From Planctomycetia bacterium (GTDB lineage: Bacteria; Planctomycetota; GCA-002687715), in NCBI GenBank assembly GCA_005790545.1, contig SXUL01000106.1:13975-77974 (forward strand): a stretch of DNA of 64,000 bases, in the 5' to 3' direction. Both the position numbers and the translations under genes were made by a program. Shown here one piece after another: positions 343 through 61,622 of this stretch (positions are counted from its first letter, which is position 1; the number at the start of each line of letters is the position of its first letter). The notes under the pieces are model-generated. The model did no database searches. It saw nothing but the letters and a program-made list of their open reading frames with translations, and was not told where the DNA came from.

Positions 343-1392
343 ATGAGCGCCATCGGCACATGGTGGAAAGAACGCTGCCCGGTTCCTGCGGGGCAGTTGA
401 AGGAACTCACGAATGAACCGGTGCCGAATCACCTCCGGCATTGGTGGTTCTGCCTGGGCGGAACACCGGCCTACCTTTTCTTCGTGCAGATCGTGACGGG
501 CATCCTCCTCGCGGTCTACTACAGGCCCGGCCAAGCAGAAGCCTGGCAGTCGGTGCGCGAAATCACGGATGAAGTGGCCTTCGGCTGGTTCATCCGCAGC
601 GTGCACAAGTGGGGCGCGACCTTGATGATCGCATCGGTCATCCTGCACCAGATGCGCATCTACTTCACGGGTGCGTACAGAGCGCCGCGCGAGCTCAACT
701 GGATGGTGGGGATGCTGATCCTCATCTGTACGCTCATGACCGGCTTCACCGGTTACAGCCTCGTCTACGAGCAGCTCTCGTACTGGGGTGCCACCGTGGG
801 CGCGAACATCATGGACAACGTGCCCTTCGTCGGCGCGTTCATGAAGAACATGCTCCTCGGTGGCGAGGCCTACAACTCCCACACGCTTTCGCGCTTCTTC
901 ATCCTGCACGCGGCTGTGCTGCCGGTCGTGATGCTGCTCCTCCTCGTTGTGCACATCACACTCATCCGCCTGCATGGCGTCACGGAGTTCCAGTTCCCCT
1001 CGGACGCCAACAAGCCTTCGAAGACCTTCAACTTCTTCCCCGATCACATGCTCACCGAGCTGATGATCGGTCTCGTCCTGATGATCGTGCTCTCGGCGCT
1101 CGCGACCATCCTGCCGGCCACCATGGGCCCGCAGGCGGACCCGCTGACGACACCGGAGATCATCAAGCCGGAGTGGTTCTTCTACGTGGTGTTCCGCTGG
1201 TTGAAGCTGTTCTCCGGAACGGCGGCCGTGCTGAGCACCGGGTTCATCGTCTTTGTCATGTTCTTGTGGCCCTTCATTGACGGCTGGATCCGCCGCCGCA
1301 CCAAAGCCAGCGAGCTGAGCGTGTGGATCGGAATTCTTGCCGTTCTCGCCATCATCGGACTCACGGTTTGGGAAGCCGCGGTTGCTCACTGA
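343..1392 (+). CDS. cytochrome b (b6-like subunit of a bc-type complex)
   Basis: 349 aa, multiple TM helices and cytochrome b signature (WWFCLGG..., FFVQIVTGILLAVYY, heme-ligating His in helices). Adjacent to Rieske gene. Confidence 0.9.
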   Translation: MSAIGTWWKERCPVPAGQLKELTNEPVPNHLRHWWFCLGGTPAYLFFVQIVTGILLAVYYRPGQAEAWQSVREITDEVAFGWFIRSVHKWGATLMIASVILHQMRIYFTGAYRAPRELNWMVGMLILICTLMTGFTGYSLVYEQLSYWGATVGANIMDNVPFVGAFMKNMLLGGEAYNSHTLSRFFILHAAVLPVVMLLLLVVHITLIRLHGVTEFQFPSDANKPSKTFNFFPDHMLTELMIGLVLMIVLSALATILPATMGPQADPLTTPEIIKPEWFFYVVFRWLKLFSGTAAVLSTGFIVFVMFLWPFIDGWIRRRTKASELSVWIGILAVLAIIGLTVWEAAVAH

Positions 1393-1410
1393 AAACAGAG
1401 GATTCTCACC

Positions 1411-3000
1411 ATGACCATCACAACCAAGAAATCGATCATCGGGGTCCTCGGGTTCCTCTTCCTCCTCTCGCTCGTCTTCGTGCAGTGGCACGAAGTGACG
1501 CGCCGGGCGGAAGAGGCAGGGCTCACGGACACACTGGCCGTGATCCCGGATTCCAGCAAGGCCTGCTACGACTGCCACAAGCAGAAGACACCGGCCCTGG
1601 TGGATCACTGGCGCGGCAGCACACACGCCGAGAAGGGCGTTGGCTGCGTGGAATGCCACCAGGCTGAACGCGGTGACGCAGACGGCTTCGATCATGAAGG
1701 CGCCTTCATCGCCACCATCGTGACGCCACGCGACTGCTCGCGCTGCCACGTCACGGAAGGCGCGGAATTCGCCTCCAGCCACCACGCGGCCGGCGGCAAC
1801 ATCCTCGCCTCTCTCGACAACCGCCTCGCGGAAGTCGTCGAAGGTGCGCGCGCACCGTTCAACCCGCATGCGAAGTCACCCATTCCTGTCGGCACGCTGA
1901 CGCAGGTGAACGGCATGGCCAGCGTGCAACTCGGCTGCATGCAGTGCCACGGTTCGAAGGTGGCGCTGGCCACCACCGACGGCGGCACCGTCACCGTGGA
2001 CGACCTGAAGCCGGGCCCGGACGGCAAGCCCACCCTCACCGCGGCTCTCGCCAAGGTGCAGAAGGATCAACACGGACGCCCCGTGCTGCATTCGTCAGCC
2101 TGGCCGAACACCGGCATTGGTCGCCTCAATCTCGACGGCTCCAAGGGTTCTTGCGCGGCCTGTCACTCACGCCACGACTTCAGCCCGCGCCGCGCACGCC
2201 AGCCGGAAGCCTGCGGCAAGTGCCACATGGGCCCGGATCACCCGCAGAAGGAAATCTTCGAAGAATCGAAGCACGGCATCGCATTCCGCGATCGCATGAG
2301 CGAAATGAACCTGGACGCGAAGCACTGGGTACTCGGCGAGGACTACAGCGCCGCACCCACCTGCGCCACGTGCCACATGTCCGGCAACAAGAAGAATGGC
2401 GGCAAGGTGACCCACGACCCGGGCGAGCGCATCTCCTGGACGCTGCGTCCTCCGGTGAGCATTCCCATGGACACCGACGAGAAGCACGCCATCGTGAAGG
2501 AACTGGACCCCGAGAAACGCGCAGCCCTCGTCAAGGACAGCGCAGAAGCGAAACGCCGCCGCATGCAGGAGGTGTGCAGTCACTGTCACACGCCGGATTA
2601 CGTGAACGGCTTCTACAAACAATATGACGACCTCGTCATTCTCTACAACGAGAAGTACGCGAAGCCCGGCGCAGCCATCATCGCGGCGCTCAGGAAAGAG
2701 AACCTCCTCACCGCGCCCGAGTTCGACGAAAAAGTGGAGTGGACCTGGTACCTCCTCTGGCATCACGAAGGCCGCCGCGCGCGCCACGGTGCCAGCATGA
2801 TGGGGCCCGACTACACCCACTGGCACGGCATGTTCGAAGTGGCCGAGCGCTGGTACACGGAAATGATCCCTGAAGTGCGCGAACTCCTCGAGAAGGCGCG
2901 CCACTCAGGAAAGACAGAGGCCGCCGACCGTGTGGCGGCCATCGTGGACGGGATCATGTCCCGCCCCGAGCACCAGTGGGCCGGCCCGCAGAAGAACTGA
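1411..3000 (+). CDS. multiheme c-type cytochrome (8 CxxCH motifs) with N-terminal membrane anchor/signal
   Basis: CxxCH motifs in translation: CYDCH, CVECH, CSRCH, CMQCH, CAACH, CGKCH, CATCH, CSHCH. Hydrophobic N-terminus. GAGGA SD upstream. Follows Rieske-cytb in the same orientation. Confidence 0.85.
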   Translation: MTITTKKSIIGVLGFLFLLSLVFVQWHEVTRRAEEAGLTDTLAVIPDSSKACYDCHKQKTPALVDHWRGSTHAEKGVGCVECHQAERGDADGFDHEGAFIATIVTPRDCSRCHVTEGAEFASSHHAAGGNILASLDNRLAEVVEGARAPFNPHAKSPIPVGTLTQVNGMASVQLGCMQCHGSKVALATTDGGTVTVDDLKPGPDGKPTLTAALAKVQKDQHGRPVLHSSAWPNTGIGRLNLDGSKGSCAACHSRHDFSPRRARQPEACGKCHMGPDHPQKEIFEESKHGIAFRDRMSEMNLDAKHWVLGEDYSAAPTCATCHMSGNKKNGGKVTHDPGERISWTLRPPVSIPMDTDEKHAIVKELDPEKRAALVKDSAEAKRRRMQEVCSHCHTPDYVNGFYKQYDDLVILYNEKYAKPGAAIIAALRKENLLTAPEFDEKVEWTWYLLWHHEGRRARHGASMMGPDYTHWHGMFEVAERWYTEMIPEVRELLEKARHSGKTEAADRVAAIVDGIMSRPEHQWAGPQKN

Positions 3001-5004: not shown

Positions 5005-5587
5005 TCATGGAAACATGCGTGCGGAGATGACTCCGCAGCGGCGCGCAGTCTATGCACGTCTGCATGGCCCTTCAAGGACGCAGCGGCACCGCGTGCTTTC
5101 GCCGCGTGGATGCGGGGGCATGGGAAAAGAAGCGCCCTGGTGACCCCCTCCGGGTCCCCAGGGCTCTTCAGCTTCCAGCCGTCCTTCCAGGCTCGCGCGT
5201 GCAAGCACGCGCGCTCCTCCCTCGAAGAAACCCGTCCAGTTTCTTCCGCCTGATTCCGGGCCCGCCTTGGCGACCCGGTTGTTTCACGATTGCAAATCTG
5301 ACAGTCCGCTGAACCGATCCGTGCACCCTCGCGACGCGAGGGGCACCCACATGTTCGGACGCTCCCGCGCGAACTTGATGCGGCGCTTCACGATTCGTTG
5401 CGCGGCCTCAATGCGCGCGCAGACGCGGAGATTCGGAGCGGCCGCCTTGAGCAACATGGCCGGACATCTGCGGCGTCAAGATGACAGCGCGCGCCACTTC
5501 AGTCCGCGAGGGGTCCCGCGGGCGAGAGCCCTTCACAGAGCCACACCTGCACGCTTCATGCCGCACGCCGCGGTACGCTCTGCCACC

Positions 5588-6298
5588 ATGCTTCAAGCAC
5601 TCGTCACGAGACTGAAGAGCGCACGCCAAGAAGGCGTTTCCGCCCCGCTGCCGCGCATCGGCGTACTCATCGTGAGCGTGGTTCTCGCCACAAGCGCCTA
5701 CATCCTGCTCGCGGTCGCGGACGCACCTCCACACCAGCGCCACTTCCACTTCATCGATGAGCGAGGCGCCATCACGGTGCTCTCCGCGGTGTATCTGGCG
5801 ATGTCGGCCGCTTTCTCGATCGGCGCCTTCGTCGTCAATCTCCTGGTCCGGGACTCCAGTCGCTGGCTGTGGATCGCTCTTGCGTTGACCTTGGCCTTCC
5901 TCTCACTCGATGAGTTGATGCAGTTCCACGAACGCCTCGGTCGACGCCTCGGAGAGCAGGCCTCGTCAGGGCCCTTCAGGAACTGGAATGACCTGGTGGT
6001 CATCGCCTACGGCGTGGCCGCATTGCCCTTGGCAGCGGTGTTCCTTCCGAGTCTGCTGCGGTACCGGTTCGTGCTGGAGTTGTTTGCCGCCGCCGCACTC
6101 TGCTACGCCGTCCACACCACCATCGATTCAACCGTCGAGCCTTCGACAGACATGTCGGTCATTGCCGAAGAGTCCTGCAAACTGATGTGTGGCGCGTTCC
6201 TGCTGCTCAGCACCTTCGTCGGTTTCCTGGGCGCGCTAAGCCGCAATGGTCTCGGCTCGAGCTCGAGGTCCGCAACCACGGCTCCAGCGCGGCCCTGA
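5588..6298 (+). CDS. hypothetical integral membrane protein (~6 TM helices)
   Basis: Hydrophobic helices throughout. The long ORF from 5267 probably starts at the ATG at 5588 (MLQALVTRLK...). Confidence 0.5.
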   Translation: MLQALVTRLKSARQEGVSAPLPRIGVLIVSVVLATSAYILLAVADAPPHQRHFHFIDERGAITVLSAVYLAMSAAFSIGAFVVNLLVRDSSRWLWIALALTLAFLSLDELMQFHERLGRRLGEQASSGPFRNWNDLVVIAYGVAALPLAAVFLPSLLRYRFVLELFAAAALCYAVHTTIDSTVEPSTDMSVIAEESCKLMCGAFLLLSTFVGFLGALSRNGLGSSSRSATTAPARP

Positions 6299-6413
6299 AG
6301 CGCACAGCAGTTGCCATCGCTCGTCCCCCGGCACCGCGCGCGACAGCCCAACGAACGCGGCGCCCGCAGCATCGAGCCACGGGCGCCGCCAGGAACGCAG
6401 CACGATGACGCCG

Positions 6414-7457
6414 TCAGCGGATAAGCGTCATGTGCAGCACTGCGAAGGTGGGGTTGGCGCCGGACGCACCGAGGACCGCGTATTCGTCAGCTCGAATCAT
6501 CGTGCTCGTGCTGGCACCAAGAGTCAGCGAGCCCGGCTTGCCCCCATTCGAGCGGGTGCAGGAGAACTGGATCTGCTCCAGTGAAAGCACACCCTCGGCG
6601 CTGTCAAAAGATGCGGGTTGGAAACTGAGCGTGGCCTGCTCTGCGGGACCACTGCCCATGTTCAGCTCAACGCGACGTTCGGATTTCACAGCCGTGCGCA
6701 CCATGCCCGTGGCCACGCCGCGGAAGGACGCGTGACCTGTCAACTGGCGGAGTTGCTGAGTCAAGGCCTCGGGCAGGGCGGCGCCGCCCGACTCACCCTC
6801 CGGCAGAACCTCGATGATGTGGCAGGTAACGAGCACCTGCGCGAGCGGCCTGTCCATGTTCCGCAGGATGGCCGTCATCGCGGCAACGTTTTCCTGCGTG
6901 TCATACAGAGCGACCACACCACGCTCTTTCAAGAAGCTGACGCTCGATACGGTCGAACCATCGGACTGGCGGATGTGGCGCCGCAACCCATCGAGTGCAA
7001 CGATCACCTCCTTCTCTCCCAGGTAGCGCAACGCATACGCACTGCTGACGAAGGAACCGCTGGTGCGCTGCTCGCTGAGCGGTCGTTGATCGAGCAGCTT
7101 CAATCCCCCGAGAATCGCTGTGCCCATCTCGCGCGTGTCCTGGATGAGAATCGCTGCCTGAACCGCGGCCACATTGTCGACGAGGCTGACTCCGTCTGCA
7201 CGTCGGACAGCCAGCTTCCTGCCGTACAGACGCTGCACGGCTTCGAACAGGGCGGGAGGGTGAGAACGCTCGGCATGAAACACTTCGAGGACGAGCGCCG
7301 CGGCCTCCACGGGCACTCCGGCAGCAGCGCTGACACCCACAGCCTGCTGCGGCGCCATTCCTGCGGACTCGCTCGCGCGCCCCGTTTGAGCCGGGAGCAA
7401 GGCACCGAGCACCACCAACACCAAGAGACCTCCCGCGCACTTCGTGGTCATCTTCAT
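6414..7457 (-). CDS. secreted protein with secretin N-domain-like repeats but no secretin C-domain
   Basis: Signal peptide MKMTTKCAGGLLVLVVLGALLPAQ with GGAGG SD. Internal segment VVALYDTQENVAAMTAILRNMDRPLAQVLVTCHIIEV resembles the Secretin_N fold. Protein ends ~130 aa later without a beta-barrel secretin domain. Confidence 0.55.
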   Translation of the reverse strand: MKMTTKCAGGLLVLVVLGALLPAQTGRASESAGMAPQQAVGVSAAAGVPVEAAALVLEVFHAERSHPPALFEAVQRLYGRKLAVRRADGVSLVDNVAAVQAAILIQDTREMGTAILGGLKLLDQRPLSEQRTSGSFVSSAYALRYLGEKEVIVALDGLRRHIRQSDGSTVSSVSFLKERGVVALYDTQENVAAMTAILRNMDRPLAQVLVTCHIIEVLPEGESGGAALPEALTQQLRQLTGHASFRGVATGMVRTAVKSERRVELNMGSGPAEQATLSFQPASFDSAEGVLSLEQIQFSCTRSNGGKPGSLTLGASTSTMIRADEYAVLGASGANPTFAVLHMTLIR

Positions 7458-7872
7458 CCGAGGAACCTCCATGCGTGAACACACGCATTGTGCGCAACAG
7501 GTCACAGCAGTGAGGCTTCCAGGAAACGCCCTGCGCGCTCGGTTGGTGGCCTCTGCCGGATCATTGCGCAGGCCGCTGGACGGGACGATCCCGAGGCCAT
7601 TCCGCGCACTCGGCCACGCGTGTTCATCTCTGCACAAAAAGAGAATCCCCGGGCGCGCCCTTGCGCAGCCCGGGGATACTCGGCCGGACGTTTGCCGGTC
7701 AGTTACCGCCGGCGGATGTATCCGCCTTGGCGGGTGTTGTTCCTCCAGTGCGCGGGGCCTCCTGTTTGGGAGTCGCCGTCATGCGGCCGAAGATCGCGCG
7801 CTGGTGTTCGATGGTCACATCCACTTCCTTGTCCGCTGGTACTCGCCCGGAGTACTCGTTGAAGCCGCCGCC

Positions 7873-8904
7873 TCAACAGCCGGGGAAGCGGCTCGTGCTC
7901 AAGAGGATGCGCTTCTTCTTGTCCATCACCACGATTTGCGGACTCGTGGCATCGGGCAGGAAATCGTGGTATTCCTCGCCGCTCTTGCCGAAATACTTCA
8001 GGTTGTACGGCACCGTCAGCTTGTCGCCGGCGAGGGTGTACTGGAAGTCGATCTTGATAGGGCCACCCCATGCGAGGGCGGTTTCCTTGCCGGACGTGAC
8101 CGCGATGGCAGCCATGTTGCCCTGACGCACGCGCACGGTCTCGGTGCCATTGGCCACGATCCCGCCGCTGATGAGCCACTGACCCGCCGGCACCTTGAGC
8201 GCCTTCTTCGTTGCGGCAGCGTTGAAGGAGATGTCCCCCTTCTCGTTCGAGATCACCACGGCCTTGATGTCGCCGTTGCCCTCGAAGTCGCTGCGCACAT
8301 CCACCAAGCCCGACTCTCCGGCAAAGGCCGTGATGCTGGCATTGCTGCCATCCGCGTTGATTTCGAACGTGAAGAGCTCACCGCCGAGATTGACAACGCG
8401 CGAGAGGAAGCAAGCGGCATCGCCGCTGCCCACCACCATCGCGTCCACGCCGTAGTCGTTGTAGACACCGTTGTTGTTCTGGTCGATGATGGCGATGTTC
8501 GCACCCTTCGCCTTGCCGACCATGGCACCACCGGCGCTGTGCGACCAAGCCTCGCCCTTCTTCTGGAAGCGCACGCCGTAGACGAACGACTTTCCGTCGA
8601 CGGTCTTCGCCTTCAGCTTCATCTCGGCGCTGATGCCCTTGGCCTTCTCGTCCACCTTGCCATCGCCATTCACGTCCACGGCAAGCGCAGAACCTTGCAC
8701 CTCAGTGGCAAAGTTGGTGCCTGCTGCGTGGGTGATGTTGATGCCGTTGCTGATCGGGGTCCACGTCTCCTTGGGGAGCACGTAGGTCCACTTGTCGGGA
8801 ATCTTGTGCGTCAGCGTCACCTGCTCCGGCGCTTGTTCCTGCGCCGGCATCAGGCTGATCGCCAGGCTGCATGCAAGCCCGGAGAGCACGAGTCGGTTCA
8901 TCAT
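7873..8904 (-). CDS. hypothetical secreted protein (Lys-rich, Asp-rich DxNGDG-type loops)
   Basis: Signal peptide MMNRLVLSGLACSLAISLMPAQ. DVNGDGKVDE-like calcium-binding-type loops. Locally lower GC than surroundings. Confidence 0.55.
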   Translation of the reverse strand: MMNRLVLSGLACSLAISLMPAQEQAPEQVTLTHKIPDKWTYVLPKETWTPISNGINITHAAGTNFATEVQGSALAVDVNGDGKVDEKAKGISAEMKLKAKTVDGKSFVYGVRFQKKGEAWSHSAGGAMVGKAKGANIAIIDQNNNGVYNDYGVDAMVVGSGDAACFLSRVVNLGGELFTFEINADGSNASITAFAGESGLVDVRSDFEGNGDIKAVVISNEKGDISFNAAATKKALKVPAGQWLISGGIVANGTETVRVRQGNMAAIAVTSGKETALAWGGPIKIDFQYTLAGDKLTVPYNLKYFGKSGEEYHDFLPDATSPQIVVMDKKKRILLSTSRFPGC

Positions 8905-9159
8905 CGTCAGTTCCTCGGTGCGGTGCGTGGGTGATCACGCTTTCCGCACAGGTCAAAGGATATCCGACTGAACCACTTCTTGGCGAGAGCTGAAAGGCCA
9001 CAGTCTTTGCGGCATCACAGCGCACCCACCAAGGCGCGTCGCTGCTTGGAAGTCCATGAAACTGAGAGACTTGCGATGCTCATCCTCCACCGGCGGCTCC
9101 CTGGGCACCTGCTCCTGGCTCTGCCAAGAGCGCAGGGCTCTCCAGCAGCGACTCCGGAT

Positions 9160-10023
9160 TCACCCTCGGATCGAGCGCATCCAGAACACGCCCCCGTGTG
9201 CCTTCTGGCCCTGCAGCGCCGGAAGTTCGAAGAGCGGAGCAAGCATGCGTGTGAGCACCTCATCGTGGTGGCTGATGAAGTACGTCGGAAAGACAACTTC
9301 ATCGCCGCACGCACCCGCAAGCAGGTGGCTCAGCAGCAGATACTGCTCGTTGTAGAAGCGCCGGTGCCAATCGACCGGATAGTCGTCTGGCAAAAAAATG
9401 TCATGAATGCCGTAGGTGATTCCGGACGGCAGGATGGGCAGCACCTCCGTGAAGAACACCGTGGTGTCGGTGTTCGTGAAGACATGATGGCTGCCATCCA
9501 GAAACAGCATGTCGCCGGGTGCGAGCCACTCAAGAACCTTCTCACCGACCGCTTGAAACGGCGCGCGAATCGTCTGATCACAGAGCGCATCAATCTCGGC
9601 GCGCGGGCATGGATCAATGGAGATGATGCGCGTCCTGAGGCTGTGGTCGCGGATGGCCTTGCGGGCGAATTTCGTCGAGGTGCCAGAGCCGATTTCAAGA
9701 TAGGTGGCGGGATTCAACAGCCGCAGTTGTGTGTAGATGGACATGCCATCAAGCGCCGGCAGCCAGCCGTTGACCCAGTGTGGTTTGTCAGGACTCCTGG
9801 TTCGCGTTGTGAGATCAGCCACCTGCGGAGCATCTTCCGCGATGGCTCTGCAAAGAAGGCCAAAGCCGTCACGGTTCTGTTCGAAGATTGCGTGCAGCTT
9901 GCGGCCAGCTTGGGTTGCTGCAAAGTCCCGCGCCAAGGGCGTGAATGCATATGCCCGCGCCCGAATGCGCTTGATCAGCCTCGGGACGGGTTTCTTCAGC
10001 CCCAGCAGTTTTCGCAGGCTCAT
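9160..10023 (-). CDS. class I SAM-dependent methyltransferase family protein
   Basis: Gly-rich motif I LEIGSGTST followed by acidic motif II. Resembles the CmcI/TylF-like O-methyltransferase fold. Start chosen at the Met of MSLRKLLGLKKP. Confidence 0.6.
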   Translation of the reverse strand: MSLRKLLGLKKPVPRLIKRIRARAYAFTPLARDFAATQAGRKLHAIFEQNRDGFGLLCRAIAEDAPQVADLTTRTRSPDKPHWVNGWLPALDGMSIYTQLRLLNPATYLEIGSGTSTKFARKAIRDHSLRTRIISIDPCPRAEIDALCDQTIRAPFQAVGEKVLEWLAPGDMLFLDGSHHVFTNTDTTVFFTEVLPILPSGITYGIHDIFLPDDYPVDWHRRFYNEQYLLLSHLLAGACGDEVVFPTYFISHHDEVLTRMLAPLFELPALQGQKAHGGVFWMRSIRG

Positions 10024-10063
10024 AGGTCTCTCGGCAAGTGCAGCATGAGGTACTAACGCAATG

Positions 10064-12907
10064 TCAGCGCCGCCAGGCAGCAGGCAGAGGCGCAACAGCA
10101 CGGGCGAACCACAGCGGGCGCCGCAAGCCGCCAGGTCCCGCCCCCTTCCGCGTCAGTGCGAGCCACTCGTGCCACACGGACATGGACTTTTCGAGATCCA
10201 CGTGGATGTCCCCGTAGCGGTCGCCTGAGGGCGCTTTTTCAACCTTCACAAGCTGATGCCAGCAGTGCATGCCGCTGATCGGGTCCGGTTGCACGGGAAA
10301 AGTGAGGTTCTGATGCACACCGCCATCTGACCACCACACGCGCTTCGAATCAGGATCCGTCGAAGCAAAAGGTGTGATGTCCCCTGTGCGGCGGATGTCC
10401 ATCGCACTGCCCTCCCGCTCGATGCGCACGGGCGCCGCAGCCCAGCGATCCGTTCCGGGGAGGCCATCGATGCGCCAGCGCCCGAGATGGTGCGAGCAGG
10501 CCACCACGCCCGGACGAATGCCCTCCGTCACCCATACCTTGTTCACGAAGTGCCCGATGCGCGTGGTGACACGCAGCAGGTCGCCCGTGCGCACGCCGAG
10601 GGCCCACGCATCCTCAGGATGCACCCAGACCGGATTCGAGTTGGAGATCTCGTAAAGCCACTTGGCATTGCCGCTGCGCGTGTGGATGAGCGTCGGCAGC
10701 CGGAAGTTCGGGAGCAGCACAAACTCGCCCGCTTCGCGCTTCAACTTCGTTGGGTGCACGTGACTCGGGATGTATCCCGGCATGGAGTTCTCGCGGCCGT
10801 AGCCCCACTCCTCCACCGTGGGTGAAAAGAATTCGAGGCGCAGTGACGGCGTTCTGAAACCCGCAGCGGGCTTGCCTGCGAGATCGACGGCGATTGGCTT
10901 GCCGTCGCGCATCCAGAGTGCACGCGCGGAATCGAGCGTCGCGCCCGTCACGTCTACCGGCTTCTTGAAGACCTCCCCGACCGATTCCTCCACCAGAAAC
11001 GCACCATGACGGCGCATGTACTCGAGAGGCGTGAGCCCCTCGCGCTGAGCGGCTGCGGGCAAGCCCGGCACGCTGTTCTCGAAGATCCAGCGGTAGTACT
11101 CCTCTGTGGTGACGCACTCACCTTTCCGGTAGGGCGATTCGAAGTTCTTCCTGATGCCGAGACTTCCATCCTCGTCGATGGCCCACGAGAGCCGGATCCA
11201 GAACTCGTCCTCTTCCCACACTTCACCCGGATTCGCCTCGTGCGTCCACGTAATGCTGCGGCCCTCGCGTTCCGCATGCACGCGCAGCACCGGTTGACGG
11301 AATGCGATCCAGCGCGCGGCGTGGGTTTCCTGACTCTGAATGTCGTGGCGTTCGGGCCCGTGGCCCATGGGCAGCACGTAGTCCGCGAACAACGCCGTTT
11401 CACTCCATGTGGGCGTCAGCGCTGCGTGCAGTCCGACCAGCTTCTCGTCCTTCAACACATCCATCCACATGCCGCCGTCCGGATTGGTCCAGACCGGGTT
11501 GTAGACGCGTGTGAAATATGTGTCGAGGCGGCCGCGCCCGTCCTTCAGGAAGTGCGGCAGCAAGAACGAGAGTTCGTGATGCGAGAAGGGCCACTCCTCC
11601 GGATAGAGGAGTTCATTCCACACCTCCTGGGGGCTCGGTTTCGTGAAGGGCGCAGGCACGAATTTGTTGTGCGGCGCGAGATGTGTGCCGCCGGCCGTGT
11701 TGACGGACCCCGTGAGCACACACAGGAACTGCATGCAGCGCGCCACCTGCCAACCACCGAGATGCCCGGCCGCGGCGCTGCGCCACACATGCGCACTGAG
11801 CGCACCGCGCGCGGCGCCGATCTCGCGGGCGAGTTCGCGGATGCGCATCATCGGAACACCGCACTCGGCGGCGGCCCACTCCGGCGTGAAACGCGCGAGA
11901 TGTTCGCTGAGCGCCGCCTTGAAACTCGCAAAGACACCCGGCTTTCCCGGATGATGCGCCGCGAGCCACTCGCGCCAATTCACCCACTGCTGCATGAACG
12001 CGTCGTCGCAGAGATTCTCGGCGACCAGCACATGCGCGAACGCGAGCAGCAGCGCAGCCTCGGTGCCTGGCTGTGGCGAGAGCCACCACGTGGACATGCT
12101 GGCGGTGTTCGAAAGCCGCGTGTCGATGGTCAGCACCTTCGCGCCGGCCATCATGCCTTCGATGATGCGCTGAGCGTGCGGATTGAAATAGTGGCCTGTC
12201 TCGAGATGCGAGGAAATGAGCAGGATGAATTTCGCCCGCGCATGATCCGGCGAGGGCCGGTCCATGCCGCTCCAGAGGGCGTAGCCGAGGCGCGCGGCCG
12301 CAGAGCACACATTCGTGTGCGAGTTGTGGCCATCCACGCCCCAGCTCTGCAACACGCGGTCCATGTAGCCGTCATGCCCGGGCCGCCCCACGTGGTACAT
12401 CACCTCGGTCTTGCGGCCCTCCTTCAGCGCCGTGCGGATGCGGCGCGCGAAGGTGTCGATGACCTCATCCCACGTCGTGCGTTCGAATTGCCCCGAGCCG
12501 CGCGGCCCCGACCGCTTCAGCGGGTGCAGGATGCGCTGCGGATCATTGACCTGGTTGATGGTCGCGGGGCCCTTCGCGCAGTTCCGTCCGCGCGATGCTG
12601 GATGGAAGGGATTGCCCTCGAGCTTCCTGATCGTGCCCGATTCTTTGTCCACATAGGCGACGAGTCCGCAGGCCGCCTCGCAGTTGAAGCACACCGTTGG
12701 AATGAGGCGGTAGTGCTTCTCGACCTTGCGTGGCCACGCCTTCGCGTCGTACTCGACCCAATCATCCCACTGCGCCGGCGGCGGGAAGCTGGCGAGATCG
12801 CGCACCTGCCATGGTTCACCCGAGGGAGCCGTGCCCGCAGCGGCGGCAGCGGCCTCGTTCACACCCTTCACGGTGGCACTCATGAGTTCGGTGTCTCCTG
12901 ACCGCAC
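10064..12907 (-). CDS. molybdopterin (Mo-bisPGD) oxidoreductase catalytic subunit, Psr/Phs/Ttr/Soe-like, with no Tat signal
   Basis: N-terminal 4Fe-4S motif CFNCEAAC...C. Candidate Mo-ligand Cys in HTNVCSAA. 947 aa. No RRxFLK motif in the N-terminus. Confidence 0.85.
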   Translation of the reverse strand: MRSGDTELMSATVKGVNEAAAAAAGTAPSGEPWQVRDLASFPPPAQWDDWVEYDAKAWPRKVEKHYRLIPTVCFNCEAACGLVAYVDKESGTIRKLEGNPFHPASRGRNCAKGPATINQVNDPQRILHPLKRSGPRGSGQFERTTWDEVIDTFARRIRTALKEGRKTEVMYHVGRPGHDGYMDRVLQSWGVDGHNSHTNVCSAAARLGYALWSGMDRPSPDHARAKFILLISSHLETGHYFNPHAQRIIEGMMAGAKVLTIDTRLSNTASMSTWWLSPQPGTEAALLLAFAHVLVAENLCDDAFMQQWVNWREWLAAHHPGKPGVFASFKAALSEHLARFTPEWAAAECGVPMMRIRELAREIGAARGALSAHVWRSAAAGHLGGWQVARCMQFLCVLTGSVNTAGGTHLAPHNKFVPAPFTKPSPQEVWNELLYPEEWPFSHHELSFLLPHFLKDGRGRLDTYFTRVYNPVWTNPDGGMWMDVLKDEKLVGLHAALTPTWSETALFADYVLPMGHGPERHDIQSQETHAARWIAFRQPVLRVHAEREGRSITWTHEANPGEVWEEDEFWIRLSWAIDEDGSLGIRKNFESPYRKGECVTTEEYYRWIFENSVPGLPAAAQREGLTPLEYMRRHGAFLVEESVGEVFKKPVDVTGATLDSARALWMRDGKPIAVDLAGKPAAGFRTPSLRLEFFSPTVEEWGYGRENSMPGYIPSHVHPTKLKREAGEFVLLPNFRLPTLIHTRSGNAKWLYEISNSNPVWVHPEDAWALGVRTGDLLRVTTRIGHFVNKVWVTEGIRPGVVACSHHLGRWRIDGLPGTDRWAAAPVRIEREGSAMDIRRTGDITPFASTDPDSKRVWWSDGGVHQNLTFPVQPDPISGMHCWHQLVKVEKAPSGDRYGDIHVDLEKSMSVWHEWLALTRKGAGPGGLRRPLWFARAVAPLPAAWRR

Positions 12908-14391
12908 TTGATGAAGGCGCGCTCATACAGCGCAAGCCCTCCGATGGCAAAGGACGCAGCGAGCACGCTCAACCAGCCGCCCTCGGCCATGCCGAGAGTC
13001 GAGAACCCCGGCAGCAGAGCGCTGACCGCCGCGCCATAGAACAGCAGCACCGCGATGCCCGGAGCGCCGCTGTTGCGGAGCAATGCGTGCGCGCGTCGCG
13101 CCGCAGCATCCGCGATCATCATGCGATTGTGGAAACGCAGCCACATCACATTCAGAATCGCGATCACGGTGAAGCAGACCGGCGCAGGGAACGGCCCCGC
13201 CGCGGTGCCCTTCATGAACAGCGGCACGGCAGCTCCTGCAAGAAGTGCCTGCAGGATGAGATGAACGAAGAGCCCTTTTTCGAGCCAGAGATCGCGGCCA
13301 CGACACTGCGCGAAGAGGAAGGCGGTGTAGCCGGAGGCGAGCAGCGCGAGCGGCAGATTCGCCCAGCGCAGCATGTCGGCGGTCCCGGGGAATCCGAGCA
13401 GCCGGAGCGCAAGGGACGCCGTTGTGAGTGCACCGAAGCCCATGAGCACCCAGGTGCCCTTCACCAACCAGGATTTCCAGTTGGGGCGCGTGAGGATGTG
13501 GAGAAACCGGTCCGGCCTCCCGAGGTCCATGATGAGCAGGACCGTGGTGACGCCCAGGAAGAACAATGCCGCCACTTCCGGGAGCACCGCATCGAAACTG
13601 CCCTCGGCGGGGCGGCGCCCGAGGAATGCAAGGAGTGGCGCAAGCAGCATGGCACCTGCCGCGATGTTCTTGGTGACGAGATAGAGCCACACATGCCAGC
13701 CCCACATGATGGGATGCGGCACGTCAAGCGCGGCGATGAGGTCCGGCGGCGGTTCGAACCCTGGCGGAATGGGTCGGGGTGGTTCCGCGCGGTCACTCCA
13801 GAGATACATCTCCTGTTCGAGAGCCCGGCCTGGCTTCAGCGCATCGTCGAGCGCGCCTGTGTACCAGACGCGCGGCTTCGTGCCCTTCTCCACACGGCGC
13901 TGTTCCGTCTTCTCCGTCGCGAGGTGCTGCGCAATTTCCGTCGCGGGATTGGATGTGTCTCCGGCGATGATGGCATGTTCGGGGCAGACCACGACGCACG
14001 CGGGTTCGAGACCGAGCTCCGTCCTGTGCGCACAGTAGTGGCACTTCTCCGCCGTGCCGGTGTCGTCATTCAGGTAGAGCGCGTCGTAGGGGCAGGCCTG
14101 CATGCAGGCCTTGCAGCCGATGCACGCATCACGATCGAGATCCACGATGCCGTCCACGCGCTTGTGCAGCGCCGTGACCGGACAGATCTCGACGCAAGGT
14201 GCCGCATCGCAGTGGTTGCAGCGCAACACCGTGAAGTGGCGCTTCACGGACGGATACGTGCCCTTCTCGACGTACTTCACCCACGTGCGATGCGAACCCA
14301 CCGGCACTTCGTTCTCGGACTTGCAGGCGACGGTGCAGGCATGGCAGCCGATGCACTTCCTCTGATCGATGACAAAACCGTATTGAGGCAT
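12880..14391 (-). CDS. fused 4Fe-4S ferredoxin (PsrB-like) and NrfD/PsrC-like membrane anchor subunit
   Basis: N-terminal ~170 aa with four Cys clusters (CIGCHACTVAC, CNHCDAAPC, CIGCKACMQAC, CHYCAHR...C). C-terminal ~330 aa polytopic with the NrfD-family DLGRPDRF motif. Overlaps the downstream catalytic subunit gene by 28 bp. Confidence 0.8.
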   Translation of the reverse strand: MPQYGFVIDQRKCIGCHACTVACKSENEVPVGSHRTWVKYVEKGTYPSVKRHFTVLRCNHCDAAPCVEICPVTALHKRVDGIVDLDRDACIGCKACMQACPYDALYLNDDTGTAEKCHYCAHRTELGLEPACVVVCPEHAIIAGDTSNPATEIAQHLATEKTEQRRVEKGTKPRVWYTGALDDALKPGRALEQEMYLWSDRAEPPRPIPPGFEPPPDLIAALDVPHPIMWGWHVWLYLVTKNIAAGAMLLAPLLAFLGRRPAEGSFDAVLPEVAALFFLGVTTVLLIMDLGRPDRFLHILTRPNWKSWLVKGTWVLMGFGALTTASLALRLLGFPGTADMLRWANLPLALLASGYTAFLFAQCRGRDLWLEKGLFVHLILQALLAGAAVPLFMKGTAAGPFPAPVCFTVIAILNVMWLRFHNRMMIADAAARRAHALLRNSGAPGIAVLLFYGAAVSALLPGFSTLGMAEGGWLSVLAASFAIGGLALYERAFIKCGQETPNS

Positions 14392-14409
14392 GTGTGAGTG
14401 CCGGCGCGG

Positions 14410-14877
14410 TCAGCAGGTGAAACAGAAGCCTTCCAGCGCCATGGCGGTGAAGTGCGCGCTGGCAGTGGGCAGGATGTAACCGAGTGCCGCCATCCAGGGC
14501 GGGTGCGGCAACATGCGCCCCACGAAGAAGACGCCGAGGATATTGAAGCCCGCGATGATGAAGCTGTTCATCAGGACCGTGCTGGAGTCGATGCTCCCCG
14601 CCACCAAGGTTCCCGCCGCCGTGCCGACCGTCCAACCGATGACGATCATCAACTGCGAGCCCGTACCGGTCATGTCCATCGCGCGTGTCAGAGCGGCGCG
14701 AGCCTCAGCATCGCCCTTGCGAGAGCGCGACATGAGCTCGCGATCATCAAAGATCTGCCGGGCCTCTGCGGGCACGGGCGTGAGGCGGCGTCCGATCTGC
14801 TCGATGAGGGAGACCGTGACAGCAAACGTCGCGATGCCGGCGAGCGTAGTGAGGATGTCGTAGACGATGTCCATGGC
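14410..14877 (-). CDS. small hypothetical membrane protein (4 TM), first gene of the Mo-oxidoreductase cluster
   Basis: Hydrophobic ORF directly upstream of and co-oriented with the FeS-NrfD gene. The longer frame to 15048 would overlap proS, so the internal Met at 14877 is preferred. Confidence 0.35.
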   Translation of the reverse strand, partial: AMDIVYDILTTLAGIATFAVTVSLIEQIGRRLTPVPAEARQIFDDRELMSRSRKGDAEARAALTRAMDMTGTGSQLMIVIGWTVGTAAGTLVAGSIDSSTVLMNSFIIAGFNILGVFFVGRMLPHPPWMAALGYILPTASAHFTAMALEGFCFTC

Positions 14878-15019
14878 GGTGACCCCGAGGCGGAGTGCGG
14901 CACCTGCCGCGGGCGCCAGTATGACCGGCACCCGGCCCCATGCACAGGAGCCCTCCGCTTTTGCGAGTGCCGGTGGTCGTTCATCATGGCGCGCCTGCTT
15001 TCTGCGGGCGGAGACTCCC

Positions 15020-16573
15020 GTGGCCACCAACATCACGACCCGTGCCAAGGACTATGCGCAGTGGTACCTCGACGTCATTGCGGCCGGGGACCTCGCCGAC
15101 CACTCGCCCGTGCGCGGCTGCATGGTCATCAAGCCGCACGGTTTCGGGATCTGGGAACTCATCCGCGACCAGTTGGATGCGCGCTTCAAGGCCACAGGGC
15201 ACGTGAATGCGTACTTCCCGCTCTTCATCCCCATGAGCTTCCTCGCCAAGGAAGCGAAACACGTGGAGGGCTTCGCCATGGAGTGCGCGGTGGTGACGCA
15301 CTCAGGCCTCGAATCCGACGGCGCGGGCGGCTTGAAGCCCCGCGGCGAGATCGAAGAGCCTCTCATCGTGCGCCCCACTTCGGAGACCATCATCGGCCAC
15401 ACCTACGCGCAGTGGGTGCAAAGCTGGCGCGATCTCCCGCTGCTCATCAATCAGTGGGCGAATGTGGTGCGGTGGGAAATGCGCACACGGCTGTTCCTGC
15501 GCACCATGGAGTTCCTCTGGCAGGAAGGCCACACCGCGCACGAAACGCCGGCTGAGGCCGAAGAAGAAACGCTCCGCATGCTCGATGTGTACTCCGAATT
15601 CGCGGAGAACGTGCTTGCGATTCCGGTCCTGAAGGGCGAAAAATCCGCGGCCGAACGCTTCGCCGGCGCCGATCGCACCTACTGCATCGAGGCCATGATG
15701 CAGGACGGAAAGGCGCTGCAGGCCGGCACCAGCCACAACCTCGGGCAGAACTTCTCGAAGGCCTTTGACATCAAGTTCCAGACCCGCGATCAGAAGACGG
15801 AACACGTGTTCACAACCAGTTGGGGTGTGAGCACGCGCCTCATCGGTGGCGTCATCATGACCCACTCCGATGATGAAGGGCTCGTGCTGCCGCCGGCCAT
15901 CGCACCCGTCTCTGTTGCCATCGTGCCCATCTACAGAAAAGACGAGGAGCGCGAAGCCGTGCTCGGTTACGCGCGCCAGCTTCAGCAGCAACTCGCGGGT
16001 GAAGGCGCCGGCGCGAAACTGGTCCGCGGCGAGATCGAGACCGTCGTGCAGCCCGGCACCGGACGCCGCATCGTGCTCGATCTCCGGGATGGGTTGCGCC
16101 CTCCGGAGAAGTTCTTCCACTGGGAGCAGCGCGGCGTGCCCGTGCGCATCGAAGTGGGACCCCGCGACCTCGCCAACGGCAAGGCCGTGGTGGTGACGCG
16201 CGTGGATCGCGCAAAAAACATCGTCGACGCCGCAGGCCTCACGGCAGCGTGGCTGGATGCAACGCTCAGGTCCGCGCAACAGGCCCTGTTCGACAGGGCT
16301 CTGGCCATGCGCACGGCGCGCACCTTCGTCGTGAATGACTACGCCGACTTCAAGGCCCGCCTTGAGGGCGGCGGCTTCTTCCTCATGCACTGGGATGGCA
16401 CGGCGGCCACCGAAGCACGCATCAAGGAAGAAACGAAGGCGACCATTCGCTGCATTCCCGCGGCGGAAAGCCTCGCGACGGCCGACGGAATGGTGGCTCT
16501 GCGCGAAGCAGGCACCGATCCGGTCTCCGGTGCGCCGAGCGCCGGACGGGTGGTCTTCGCCCGGGCCTACTGA
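15020..16573 (+). CDS. proS: proline--tRNA ligase, archaeal/Thermus-type class II
   Basis: Strong similarity by eye to Thermus-type ProRS (DYAQWYLDVI..., FPLFIPMSFLAKEAKHVEGF, RPTSETIIGH, VVRWEMRTRLFLRT). ORF opens at 14867 and the start is uncertain (GTG at 15020 proposed). Confidence 0.85.
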   Translation: MATNITTRAKDYAQWYLDVIAAGDLADHSPVRGCMVIKPHGFGIWELIRDQLDARFKATGHVNAYFPLFIPMSFLAKEAKHVEGFAMECAVVTHSGLESDGAGGLKPRGEIEEPLIVRPTSETIIGHTYAQWVQSWRDLPLLINQWANVVRWEMRTRLFLRTMEFLWQEGHTAHETPAEAEEETLRMLDVYSEFAENVLAIPVLKGEKSAAERFAGADRTYCIEAMMQDGKALQAGTSHNLGQNFSKAFDIKFQTRDQKTEHVFTTSWGVSTRLIGGVIMTHSDDEGLVLPPAIAPVSVAIVPIYRKDEEREAVLGYARQLQQQLAGEGAGAKLVRGEIETVVQPGTGRRIVLDLRDGLRPPEKFFHWEQRGVPVRIEVGPRDLANGKAVVVTRVDRAKNIVDAAGLTAAWLDATLRSAQQALFDRALAMRTARTFVVNDYADFKARLEGGGFFLMHWDGTAATEARIKEETKATIRCIPAAESLATADGMVALREAGTDPVSGAPSAGRVVFARAY

Positions 16574-33522: not shown

Positions 33523-33523
33523 G

Positions 33524-61586: not shown

Positions 61587-61622
61587 TGCACGGCGCACGA
61601 CAGGGAGCCTGAAAGGAACACC

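What the first reader, a model, noticed from the sequence alone, without database searches (positions are those of the whole stretch)
10064..14877. Mo-bisPGD oxidoreductase without a Tat signal, paired with a fused FeS-NrfD subunit: non-canonical complex iron-sulfur molybdoenzyme architecture
The catalytic subunit (FS0 CxxCxxxC...C, Cys-type Mo ligand region HTNVCSAA) has no twin-arginine motif. This suggests a cytoplasm-facing enzyme, like SoeABC sulfite dehydrogenase or NarG, rather than the periplasmic Psr/Phs/Ttr. Its electron-transfer partner is a single polypeptide fusing a four-cluster ferredoxin domain to an NrfD/PsrC-type quinone-interacting membrane domain (DLGRPDRF). These are normally two separate subunits. 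In ACIII it is the Mo-like and FeS domains that are fused instead. The genes overlap by 28 bp. A small 4-TM protein precedes them and a SAM methyltransferase follows. The substrate is unknown.
Basis: partly seen in the sequence, partly recalled or inferred. Interest (0 to 1): 0.6.

Follow-up and report, generated by a model that had tools for sequence, protein, structure and literature searches.

The report
Inward-facing molybdoenzyme with fused FeS-membrane subunit
A planctomycete two-gene operon encodes a molybdenum enzyme that faces the cell interior and is anchored by one protein joining the iron-sulfur and membrane subunits; the layout is real and very widespread, was noted in print before, and most likely oxidises sulfite, which has never been tested.

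Summary
The catalytic Mo-bisPGD subunit (10064-12883, minus strand) has FS0 and a Cys Mo ligand, and no twin-arginine signal is possible. Its partner (12880-14391) is one 503-aa protein: four [4Fe-4S] clusters fused to an 8-helix NrfD domain. Both traits are family-wide, not sequencing errors. They occur in at least 591 species genomes: Planctomycetota, Acidobacteriota, Actinomycetota, Chloroflexi relatives, Rhodothermales and haloarchaea.

Positive-inside counts place the FeS domain in the cytoplasm. The charge bias is the reverse of that in the nearest Tat-bearing relatives, which keep B and C separate in a B-C-A-TorD operon.

Two details need correcting. The gene overlap is probably a 4-bp ATGA, not 28 bp. 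The small membrane ORF and the methyltransferase are not conserved neighbours.

The architecture is not new. psrBC fusions with Tat-less PsrA were described in green sulfur bacteria (PSRLC3), Marine Group A, haloarchaea and Chloroflexi, with sulfite oxidation proposed.

Neighbours elsewhere support a sulfur substrate: persulfide dioxygenase-rhodanese, TusA, DsrE, sHdr, TauE and a CsoR-family regulator. Sulfite:quinone oxidoreductase, as in SoeABC, is the most likely function (about 0.5). I could not obtain a genuine SoeA sequence, so that relationship is untested.

Verdict: a new member of a known kind, of moderate interest.

The parts
12880..14391 (-). psrBC-type fusion gene (503 aa): an N-terminal four-cluster ferredoxin joined to a C-terminal 8-TM NrfD/PsrC membrane domain
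   Evidence: Pfam gives Fer4_11 at 1.1e-23 and NrfD at 4.9e-15. Residues 1-181 match PsrB 2vpw_B at 4e-47. The AF2 model hits PsrB (42% identity) and PsrC (2vpw_C, TMt 0.70). The single ORF is conserved in 79 of the 81 loci analysed.
13837..14391 (-). FeS domain (residues 1-185). It has 16 Cys in four groups, enough for 4 x [4Fe-4S]. There is no signal peptide and it is predicted to be cytoplasmic.
   Evidence: Cys 13/16/19/23, 58/61/66/70, 90/93/96/100 and 117/120/132/136 are all invariant. The protein starts directly at the first cluster motif.
13708..13836 (-). Pro-rich, poorly conserved linker (residues 186-228) joining the B and C parts
   Evidence: Low conservation and pLDDT below 50. 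Sequence.
12883..13707 (-). NrfD/PsrC-type domain (residues 229-503) with 8 TM helices, N-terminus inside. The DLGRPDRF loop (13504-13527) lies on the FeS (cytoplasmic) side.
   Evidence: Hydropathy and K+R counts give 15 against 4 in the window protein, and a mean of 13.1 against 2.5 in 50 of 50 homologues. The bias is reversed in the Tat+ relatives' separate C subunits, 3 against 9.
10064..12883 (-). Catalytic Mo-bisPGD subunit (939 aa from the ATG at 12883), without a Tat signal. FS0 is at 12578-12691. The Mo-ligand Cys193 lies in HTNVCSAA (12296-12319).
   Evidence: Pfam. The best NCBIfam match is PhsA at 188 bits against a cutoff of 694, so no equivalog. PDB sequence hits are PsrA and ArrA. 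The AF2 model has pLDDT 84.7, and Foldseek finds ArrA and PsrA at TMt 0.77. The Tat-less N-terminus is family-wide.
12880..12883 (-). ATGA stop/start overlap between psrBC and psrA, with an AGGAG 11 nt upstream. This suggests translational coupling.
   Evidence: Sequence. The same 4-bp overlap is called in public assemblies and in locus L101.

Best explanation
The locus encodes a two-subunit complex iron-sulfur molybdoenzyme whose redox module faces the cytoplasm. It is anchored by the membrane domain of its own electron-transfer subunit.

**Shown here**
- The catalytic subunit has FS0 and a Cys-ligated Mo-bisPGD site. It has no export signal.
- The partner is a genuine fusion of a 4x[4Fe-4S] ferredoxin to an 8-helix NrfD domain.
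- Charge distribution places the ferredoxin and the conserved DLGRPxRF loop on the cytoplasmic side. That orientation is the reverse of the nearest Tat-exported relatives.

**Inferred evolution**
The lineage arose from a periplasmic Psr/Phs-like B-C-A-TorD operon. The steps were loss of the Tat signal and chaperone, and fusion of the adjacent B and C genes.

**Inferred function**
The enzyme oxidises a cytoplasmic sulfur compound, most likely sulfite to sulfate. [quoted passage not shown] The work would be the same as that of SoeABC and of the PSRLC3 complex proposed for green sulfur bacteria. Whether the NrfD domain also moves protons is unknown.

**Confidence by part**
Architecture and orientation about 0.9. 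A sulfur substrate about 0.75. Sulfite specifically about 0.5.
For: **Architecture:**

**Inverted orientation:**

**Tat-bearing, unfused sister lineages**
- P0368 is 45% identical. Its locus L104 reads ParA/Mrp, cyt c, B, C, A(Tat+), TorD-like, 4Fe4S.
- Azoarcus KH32C has B, C, A(Tat+) and TorD.
- The NJ tree nests the fused clade among Tat+ sequences.

**Sulfur context in unrelated phyla**
- R. jostii RHA1 and actinobacterial loci L098 and L100 carry ArsR, PDO-rhodanese, DsrE and TusA next to BC, A and Mrp.
- L099 has PDO-rhodanese plus a rhodanese.
- L097 has an SsuA/TauA-type ABC transporter.
- L095 has TauE.
- Nanopelagicales L096 has an sHdr-like cluster with DsrE and TusA, transcribed divergently.
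- Natrinema caseinilyticum has PDO-rhodanese and TauE.
- T. roseum has a CsoR-family (metal-sensitive) regulator upstream; reading it as CstR-like, i.e. a persulfide sensor, is my inference.
- PDO-rhodanese also sits beside the operon in Acidobacteria L049 and L069 and in Rhodothermales L083.
- Terriglobales have cysK and a CysQ/SuhB-like gene flanking the operon.

**Literature**
- The cytoplasmic PSR with psrBC fusion was proposed to oxidise sulfite (PMC3906813; PMC9324843).
- SoeABC is cytoplasm-facing, with SoeC proposed to be inverted (PMC8076601).
Against: - No member of the fused family has been assayed.
- I could not obtain a genuine SoeA sequence, so relatedness to SoeA is untested. 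NCBIfam and the PDB lack one, and afdb50 was unavailable.
- Among the full-length non-family proteins I examined (score at least 260 bits), most carry a Tat signal; several are annotated Psr/Phs or are Psr/Phs-like. None is an obvious Tat-less SoeA.
- JGI/IMG labels family members only with a generic dehydrogenase name, never as SoeA.
- In Planctomycetota, including this window, the operon stands alone with no sulfur genes nearby.
- TusA and DsrE sit immediately upstream in the same operon in Actinomycetota. This fits a protein-persulfide substrate or a maturation role as well as it fits sulfite.
Confidence: 0.55

Rival explanations
1. The enzyme handles sulfane sulfur or sulfide rather than sulfite. 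It would act as a Psr-type enzyme working from the cytoplasmic side. One option is oxidation of sulfide to a TusA- or DsrE-bound persulfide with menaquinone reduction, a job like that of SQR. The other is reduction of polysulfide, persulfide or thiosulfate in the cytoplasm.
For: - The closest characterised homologues are PsrA/PhsA and ArrA.
- The nearest relatives are Tat+ Psr/Phs-like proteins.
- dsrE-tusA lie directly upstream in the same operon in Actinomycetota, next to PDO-rhodanese, and no SQR is in those loci.
- cysK is adjacent in Terriglobales.
Against: - A reductive respiratory role is unlikely in taxa known mostly as aerobes (Terriglobales, T. roseum, Rhodococcus, haloarchaea); that lifestyle is my background knowledge, not tested here. 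The active site would also face the cytoplasm.
- TusA and DsrE may serve other steps, such as feeding PDO or sHdr, or cofactor sulfuration.
- TauE, sHdr and sulfonate-transporter neighbours point to sulfite.
Confidence: 0.2
2. It is a quinol-linked cytoplasmic (assimilatory) nitrate reductase. This was proposed for the Lacipirellula parvula operon 'NapA + FeS subunit fused to NrfD-like subunit', which lies next to narK and NAD(P)H nitrite reductase.
For: PMC6995999. Some database entries carry automatic names such as 'Nitrate reductase'.
Against: - NCBIfam scores to NasC, NapA, NasA and NarG are 63, 49, 44 and 30 bits, against 188 for PhsA.
- tblastn with E. coli NirB, NirD, NirC and NarK found nothing within the fetched flanks (up to 7-8 kb, less on short contigs) in any of the 92 loci searched.
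- The window already carries a NarG/NarH-like pair at 57576-63110.
- I could not check whether the L. parvula genes belong to this same family.
Confidence: 0.05
3. It oxidises another oxyanion, for example arsenite. A Tat-less 'Soe-like cluster 2' was suggested to do this in Thioalkalivibrio.
For: - The best structural match is ArrA.
- ArsR-family regulators are adjacent in Actinomycetota.
- PMC6620896.
Against: - No ars, acr3 or arsC genes appear in the gene tables and annotations I read for these loci (no dedicated search was run).
- The ArsR-family regulators sit with PDO-rhodanese, which is typical of persulfide sensors.
- The NCBIfam ArrA score is 118 bits against a cutoff of 1600.
Confidence: 0.05
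4. The B-C fusion or the missing Tat signal is an assembly or frameshift artefact of this MAG.
For: One relative, Actinomadura madurae locus L095, has the FeS and NrfD parts in different reading frames.
Against: - The identical protein occurs on 8 independent contigs.
- The single ORF is present in 79 of the 81 loci analysed and in finished genomes of cultured organisms.
- The Tat-less N-terminus is conserved in 56 orthologues.
Confidence: 0.01

Closest known systems
Cytoplasmic polysulfide-reductase-like complex with psrBC fusion: PSRLC3 of green sulfur bacteria, and the psrBC-psrA operons of Marine Group A, Marine Group II, Haladaptatus paucihalophilus and Caldilinea aerophila
   Same: - The PsrA-like subunit has no Tat signal.
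- PsrB and PsrC are fused in one gene.
- The fused gene lies upstream of psrA.
- It occurs in both Bacteria and Archaea, and a sulfite-oxidising role has been proposed (PMC3906813; PMC9324843).
- The family found here also includes haloarchaea and Chloroflexi relatives.
   Different: - This one is in Planctomycetota.
- I could not align it with GSB or MGA sequences, so clade identity is inferred, not shown.
- No fused member has been characterised biochemically.
SoeABC sulfite:quinone oxidoreductase (Allochromatium vinosum, Aquifex aeolicus, Ruegeria pomeroyi)
   Same: - A Mo-bisPGD catalytic subunit of about 105-109 kDa with FS0 and a Cys ligand.
- No signal peptide on any subunit.
- A four-cluster FeS subunit and a heme-free NrfD-type anchor, proposed to sit inverted in the membrane (PMC8076601; PMC10100899).
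- Sulfite-producing systems as genomic neighbours.
   Different: - SoeB and SoeC are separate proteins; from memory the gene order is A-B-C.
- Here B and C are fused and precede A.
- SoeC was reported only in Proteobacteria, Clostridia and Aquificae.
- Family members are not labelled SoeA by JGI/IMG.
- Sequence relatedness to SoeA could not be tested.
Thermus thermophilus PsrABC (PDB 2VPW-2VPZ)
   Same: - One of the two best solved-structure matches for each part (top in the single-sequence searches; ArrAB edges ahead in the profile search and in Foldseek for the A subunit): PsrA 3e-37, PsrB 4e-47 (42% identity) and PsrC at TMt 0.70.
- The same Cys Mo ligand.
- The same four clusters and the same 8-TM anchor.
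   Different: - Psr is exported by Tat and faces the periplasm.
- It has three separate subunits.
- PsrA is about 180 residues shorter.
- The predicted membrane orientation of the anchor is opposite.
Tat-dependent relatives with a B-C-A-TorD-4Fe4S operon (P0368 / locus L104, Azoarcus sp. KH32C pAZKH, Sulfurovum mangrovi)
   Same: - The closest relatives outside the family, at 33-45% identity.
- The same B-C-A gene order.
- P0368, P0414 and P0391 keep the N-terminal 'PPxExW' segment before FS0.
   Different: - They carry a twin-arginine signal, separate B and C genes and a TorD/NarJ-type chaperone.
- The K+R bias of C is the reverse.
- Their substrates are also unknown.
Alternative complex III (ActABCDEF)
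   Same: It uses an NrfD-type subunit next to a four-cluster FeS module. It also contains a gene fusion within the CISM module.
   Different: - In ACIII the cofactor-less Mo-like domain is fused to the FeS domain (ActB).
- The anchor has 10 TM helices, there are heme subunits, and the module is periplasmic (PMC6303296).
- Here the Mo site is intact and the fusion joins FeS to NrfD.

Membership tests
Mo/W-bisPGD (DMSO reductase, MopB) complex iron-sulfur molybdoenzymes | Catalytic subunit with an FS0 Cys motif, molybdopterin-binding domains and a protein ligand to Mo | tested here: met
   Pfam finds PF04879, PF00384 and PF01568. C65, C68, C72 and C102 are invariant. Cys193 aligns with PsrA Cys173 and the ArrA Cys. 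The fold matches ArrA and PsrA at TMt 0.77.
Mo/W-bisPGD complex iron-sulfur molybdoenzymes | Four-cluster ferredoxin electron-transfer module plus a membrane anchor | tested here: met
   16 invariant Cys in four groups. The NrfD domain is detected by Pfam and matches PsrC and ActC folds.
Periplasmic PsrABC / PhsABC | Twin-arginine signal on the catalytic subunit, giving a periplasmic active site | tested here: not met
   No RR motif is possible in the longest ORF. None is present in the true N-terminus of any of the 56 orthologues; the RR-pattern matches lie in over-extended ORFs or in the conserved RRVERRY segment.
Periplasmic PsrABC / PhsABC | Sequence membership by the NCBIfam PhsA equivalog cutoff | tested here: not met
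   188 bits against a cutoff of 694, and only the N-terminal half aligns.
SoeABC sulfite dehydrogenase | No signal peptide on any subunit, and a cytoplasm-facing A/B module on an NrfD-type anchor | tested here: met
   Positive-inside counts are 13.1 against 2.5 in 50 of 50 sequences, reversed relative to the Tat+ relatives.
SoeABC sulfite dehydrogenase | Three separate subunits: SoeA, SoeB and SoeC | tested here: not met
   B and C form one 503-aa polypeptide that precedes A.
SoeABC sulfite dehydrogenase | The catalytic subunit clusters with experimentally defined SoeA (A. vinosum D3RNN8, A. aeolicus aq_1234) | not testable with these tools
   There is no SoeA model in NCBIfam, no solved structure, and afdb50 was unavailable. 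Indirectly, most of the full-length non-family proteins examined above 260 bits carry a Tat signal, which neither proves nor excludes a link.
SoeABC sulfite dehydrogenase | Sulfite:quinone oxidoreductase activity | not testable with these tools
   This needs an enzyme assay. Only genomic context supports it.
psrBC-fusion cytoplasmic PSR-like complexes (PSRLC3 type) | Tat-less PsrA, a PsrB-PsrC gene fusion, and the fused gene upstream of psrA | tested here: met
   All three features are present in the window and match the description in PMC3906813.
psrBC-fusion cytoplasmic PSR-like complexes (PSRLC3 type) | Phylogenetic grouping with the green sulfur bacterial and Marine Group A sequences | not tested
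   Those sequences could not be fetched. Both sets include haloarchaea and Chloroflexi relatives, which suggests one clade.
Nitrate reductases (Nap, Nas, Nar) | Sequence membership and linkage to nitrate or nitrite genes | tested here: not met
   NasC 63, NapA 49, NasA 44 and NarG 30 bits, all far below their cutoffs. tblastn with E. coli NirB, NirD, NirC and NarK found nothing in the 92 loci searched.
Alternative complex III | ActB-type fusion of a cofactor-less Mo-like domain to the FeS domain, a 10-TM ActC, and heme subunits | tested here: not met
   The Mo-site residues are intact. The fusion joins FeS to NrfD, and the anchor has 8 TM helices. There are no cytochrome genes in the operon.

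The most novel reading that the evidence does not exclude
The fused, Tat-less family may be an independent lineage rather than a SoeABC subgroup. It would have arisen when a periplasmic Psr/Phs-like enzyme was turned inside-in, by loss of the Tat signal and fusion of B and C. It would serve as the main, so far unannotated, cytoplasmic sulfite (or sulfane-sulfur):quinone oxidoreductase of largely aerobic heterotroph lineages: Acidobacteriota, Actinomycetota including freshwater Nanopelagicales, Planctomycetota and haloarchaea. It might be coupled to proton movement through the inverted NrfD domain. Standard annotation would therefore underestimate sulfite oxidation capacity in soils and fresh waters.
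Probability: 0.3. Interest if true: 0.65.

Novelty: new member of a known kind. Interest (0 to 1): 0.38.

Why it matters
- The enzyme family is present in hundreds of species across at least six phyla, some of them cultured and genetically tractable. [quoted passage not shown]
- If it oxidises sulfite, genome surveys that report soeABC as absent in Acidobacteria, Actinobacteria or Planctomycetes miss a common route from cytoplasmic sulfite to sulfate that also feeds the quinone pool. That sulfite comes from persulfide dioxygenase, sHdr or sulfonate breakdown.
- The family also offers a clean natural test of how an NrfD-type module works when inverted in the membrane. Its closest relatives still face the periplasm.

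Tried and rejected
**1. Obtaining a genuine SoeA sequence for a phylogeny.**
- NCBIfam has no SoeA model and the PDB has no structure.
- tblastn against plasmids found only family members, Tat+ relatives and unrelated soluble Mo enzymes.
- The supplements of the relevant papers hold no sequences.
- The afdb50 fold library was not available.
- Cluster names for ten full-length relatives were uninformative, either generic or 'thiosulfate/polysulfide reductase chain A'.

**2. Sequence search of the NrfD domain against the PDB.**
- The single-sequence search found nothing, and the profile search was swamped by FeS hits.
- The fold search of the AF2 model then found PsrC and ActC.

**3. The nitrate-assimilation link.** tblastn with E. 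coli NirB, NirD, NirC and NarK found nothing in any locus.

**4. The small membrane ORF and the methyltransferase as parts of the system.** Rejected, because neither has a homologue beside the operon elsewhere.

**5. Promoter and terminator scan of 8900-15200.** Nothing found.

**6. Conserved neighbours in Planctomycetota.** Only lineage-specific synteny turned up: ProRS, DUF1800/DUF1501, or an S9 peptidase and a CBS protein inserted between BC and A.

**7. The Duarte et al. 2021 NrfD review and Gregersen et al. 2011.** Neither could be read.

Full report
**What is in the window**

Four minus-strand ORFs lie between 9160 and 14931:
- a small hydrophobic ORF (14413-14931, 173 aa as called in public assemblies)
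- a 503-aa ORF (12880-14391)
- a 939-947-aa ORF (10064-12883 or 12907)
- a Methyltransf_24 protein (9163-10023)

Pfam assigns Fer4_11 plus NrfD to the 503-aa protein. It assigns Molybdop_Fe4S4, Molybdopterin and Molydop_binding to the large one. The exact 503-aa protein is found on eight public contigs. One is GCA_005799575.1, which I take to be a Planctomycetota MAG because the closest named homologues are planctomycete MAGs.

- FS0, CFNCEAAC...C, at 12578-12691
- HTNVCSAA at 12296-12319
- DLGRPDRF at 13504-13527

All are invariant or nearly so in 50-sequence alignments. A profile alignment puts Cys193 on the Mo-ligand Cys173 of Thermus PsrA and on the corresponding Cys of ArrA.

The longest possible ORF of the catalytic subunit has no twin-arginine motif. 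The ATG at 12883 overlaps the TGA of the upstream gene as ATGA and has an AGGAG 11 nt upstream. Gene callers chose this ATG on the three public contigs shown.

**Neither unusual feature is an artefact**

- 79 of the 81 loci analysed (80 fetched genome loci plus the window) carry the fusion as a single ORF of about 500 aa. 56 have the catalytic gene in range.
- All 56 catalytic subunits start about 45 residues before FS0 with a conserved FPPxxxWDDWxExDxxAWPRxV segment and no Tat signal. The few 'RR' hits lie in spuriously extended high-GC ORFs or in the RRVERRY stretch.
- tblastn against plasmids found the pair in cultured organisms: Thermomicrobium roseum (60% identity), Rhodococcus jostii RHA1 (56%) and several haloarchaea (50-54%).
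- A search started from the RHA1 protein shows the family is common across Actinomycetota, including Nanopelagicales.

**Architecture and orientation**

The N-terminal 185 residues carry 16 invariant Cys in four groups. They align end to end with PsrB (4e-47). A Pro-rich, poorly conserved linker follows. After it come eight hydrophobic helices.

The AlphaFold model is confident for the membrane part (pLDDT mostly above 85). Foldseek matches the model both to PsrB (42% identity) and to PsrC (TM-score 0.70 on the target), as well as to ActC of ACIII.

Loops on the same side as the FeS domain hold a mean of 13.1 Lys+Arg. The opposite side holds 2.5. This holds in 50 of 50 homologues. With no signal peptide on either protein, the FeS domain, the DLGRPxRF loop and therefore the catalytic subunit should be cytoplasmic.

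The separate NrfD subunits of the closest Tat-bearing relatives show the reverse bias, 3 against 9. The anchor is therefore predicted to be inverted, as has been proposed for SoeC (PMC8076601).

**Relatives**

No curated NCBIfam family claims the catalytic subunit. The best match is PhsA at 188 bits against a cutoff of 694. Among solved structures, PsrA and ArrA are closest by sequence and by fold.

An exhaustive search of 1.84 billion cluster representatives shows that the family collapses to very few 50% clusters. The next full-length relatives are:
- P0368: 45% identity, 1115 aa
- P0414: 37%
- P0391: 33%
- a large set of Psr/Phs-like proteins

Most of those examined carry twin-arginine signals.

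The P0368 locus reads ParA/Mrp, cytochrome c, B, C, A(Tat+), TorD/NarJ-like chaperone and a 4Fe-4S protein. Azoarcus KH32C has the same B-C-A-TorD arrangement, and its A subunit begins MEFPKITRRTFLKA. A neighbour-joining tree without support values nests the fused, Tat-less clade among these Tat+ lineages.

The simplest reading is a periplasmic B-C-A ancestor that lost the signal and the chaperone and fused two adjacent genes.

**Function**

In this window and in other Planctomycetota the operon stands alone. Elsewhere the neighbours are consistently sulfur genes.

| Lineage / locus | Neighbours |
|---|---|
| Actinomycetota (RHA1, L098, L100) | ArsR-family regulator, persulfide dioxygenase-rhodanese, DsrE-like, TusA, BC, A, Mrp/NBP35, often two DUF202 |
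| Actinomycetota, L099 | PDO-rhodanese plus a rhodanese |
| Actinomycetota, L097 | SsuA/TauA-type ABC transporter |
| Actinomycetota, L095 | TauE |
| Nanopelagicales, L096 | sHdr-like cluster with DsrE and TusA, divergent |
| Natrinema caseinilyticum | PDO-rhodanese, TauE, BC, A, Mrp, MobA |
| T. roseum | CsoR-family (metal-sensitive) regulator upstream; 'CstR-like' is my inference |
| Acidobacteria L049, L069; Rhodothermales L083 | PDO-rhodanese beside the operon |
| Terriglobales | cysK and a CysQ/SuhB-like gene flank the operon |

PDO, sHdr and sulfonate catabolism all release sulfite in the cytoplasm. A cytoplasm-facing, quinone-linked Mo enzyme that oxidises sulfite is what SoeABC is.

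I therefore favour sulfite:quinone oxidoreductase, at about 0.5. The main rival, at about 0.2, is an enzyme acting on sulfide or carrier-bound sulfane sulfur. The tight dsrE-tusA-BC-A operon and the Psr/Phs-like ancestry support it.

Nitrate reduction was suggested for a similar operon in Lacipirellula parvula. It is not supported here:
- scores against Nap, Nas and Nar models are low
- tblastn with E. coli NirB, NirD, NirC and NarK found nothing in any of the 92 loci searched
- the window has its own NarGH-like genes

**Comparison with the literature**

The NrfD-family papers I could read do not mention an FeS-NrfD fusion. The feature is nevertheless published.

Wright et al. 2014 (PMC3906813) describe a psrBC gene fusion, a Tat-less PsrA and psrBC upstream of psrA on a Marine Group A fosmid. 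They state that the fusion had been described in green sulfur bacteria (Frigaard & Bryant 2008). They also found it in Marine Group II archaea, Haladaptatus paucihalophilus and Caldilinea aerophila. They cite the proposal that the cytoplasmic PSR of green sulfur bacteria oxidises sulfite.

PMC9324843 says that PSRLC3 is inferred to be a sulfite oxidase. Dedysh et al. 2020 noted an FeS-NrfD fusion in a planctomycete; I could not check that it is this family.

The window therefore carries a further member of a known, though biochemically untested, kind. This analysis adds four things:
- the breadth of the family
- the evidence for membrane inversion relative to Tat+ sisters
- the unfused Tat+ B-C-A-TorD relatives
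- the cross-phylum sulfur context

**Limits**

- I could not fetch any genuine SoeA or PSRLC3 sequence, so clade membership is inferred from shared features and shared host groups.
- The tree is distance-based and has no support values.
- TM helices and orientation come from hydropathy and charge counts, not from a dedicated predictor.
- The FeS domain of the model is of low confidence.
- Function rests on gene neighbourhood only.

Noticed in passing
window 57576-63110 (+): A second Mo-bisPGD enzyme sits in the same window. It comprises a NarG-like subunit (probable start MTNGNNPW, about 1212 aa, no Tat motif seen) and a NarH-like four-cluster subunit (495 aa, with Nitr_red_bet_C). This is a respiratory nitrate reductase or nitrite oxidoreductase type.
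   Followed up: partly
window 343-3000 (+): A cytochrome b (349 aa) is directly followed by a 529-aa multihaem cytochrome c. This looks like a planctomycete-style bc-type complex variant.
   Followed up: no
window 14413-14931 (-) and 9163-10023 (-): The small hydrophobic ORF upstream has coding-like GC3 of 0.84, and only 18 bp separate it from psrBC. Neither it nor the Methyltransf_24 gene downstream has a homologue next to the operon in any other locus, including the syntenic planctomycete locus L101.
   Followed up: yes
loci L009, L013, L014, L016, L040 (and probably L010, L017, L021): In one planctomycete subgroup psrBC and psrA are not adjacent. About 2-4 kb lies between them, holding an S9-family peptidase on the opposite strand and a CBS-domain protein just upstream of psrA.
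   Followed up: partly
proteins P0364, P0366, P0367: These are Tat-less relatives at 43-45% identity with degenerate cofactor motifs. P0366 lacks the FS0 cysteines. P0364 and P0367 lack the SHTNVC Mo-ligand motif. They may be cofactor-poor paralogues, as QrcB and ActB are in other complexes.
   Followed up: no
locus L095 (Actinomadura madurae), about 5491-6974: The FeS part and the NrfD part of the fusion lie in different reading frames here. The FeS part was not called as a gene. This is a frameshift or pseudogene, an assembly error, or a secondary split.
   Followed up: partly
loci L085, L087, L089, L095, L097-L100, and L104: An Mrp/NBP35 (ParA-type, FeS_assembly_P) gene overlaps the 3' end of psrA in Actinomycetota and haloarchaea. 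A ParA-like gene also sits in the Tat+ sister operon. It may be a dedicated FeS-cluster insertion factor. It is absent from the window.
   Followed up: partly
loci L047-L076 (Terriglobales): Conserved synteny: cysteine synthase (cysK), psrBC, psrA, an 87-aa Sm/Hfq-like protein, then an inositol-monophosphatase/CysQ-like protein.
   Followed up: partly
window 33389-35746 (+): A xanthine dehydrogenase / aldehyde oxidase family Mo-cofactor-binding subunit (785 aa). It is a third molybdoenzyme in the window.
   Followed up: no
locus L088 (Sulfurovum mangrovi plasmid), about 5968-9166: The catalytic gene of the related B-C-A-TorD cluster is split over two frames and is not annotated in the PLSDB gene table (which omits pseudogenes). 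It is a frameshift or a pseudogene.
   Followed up: no
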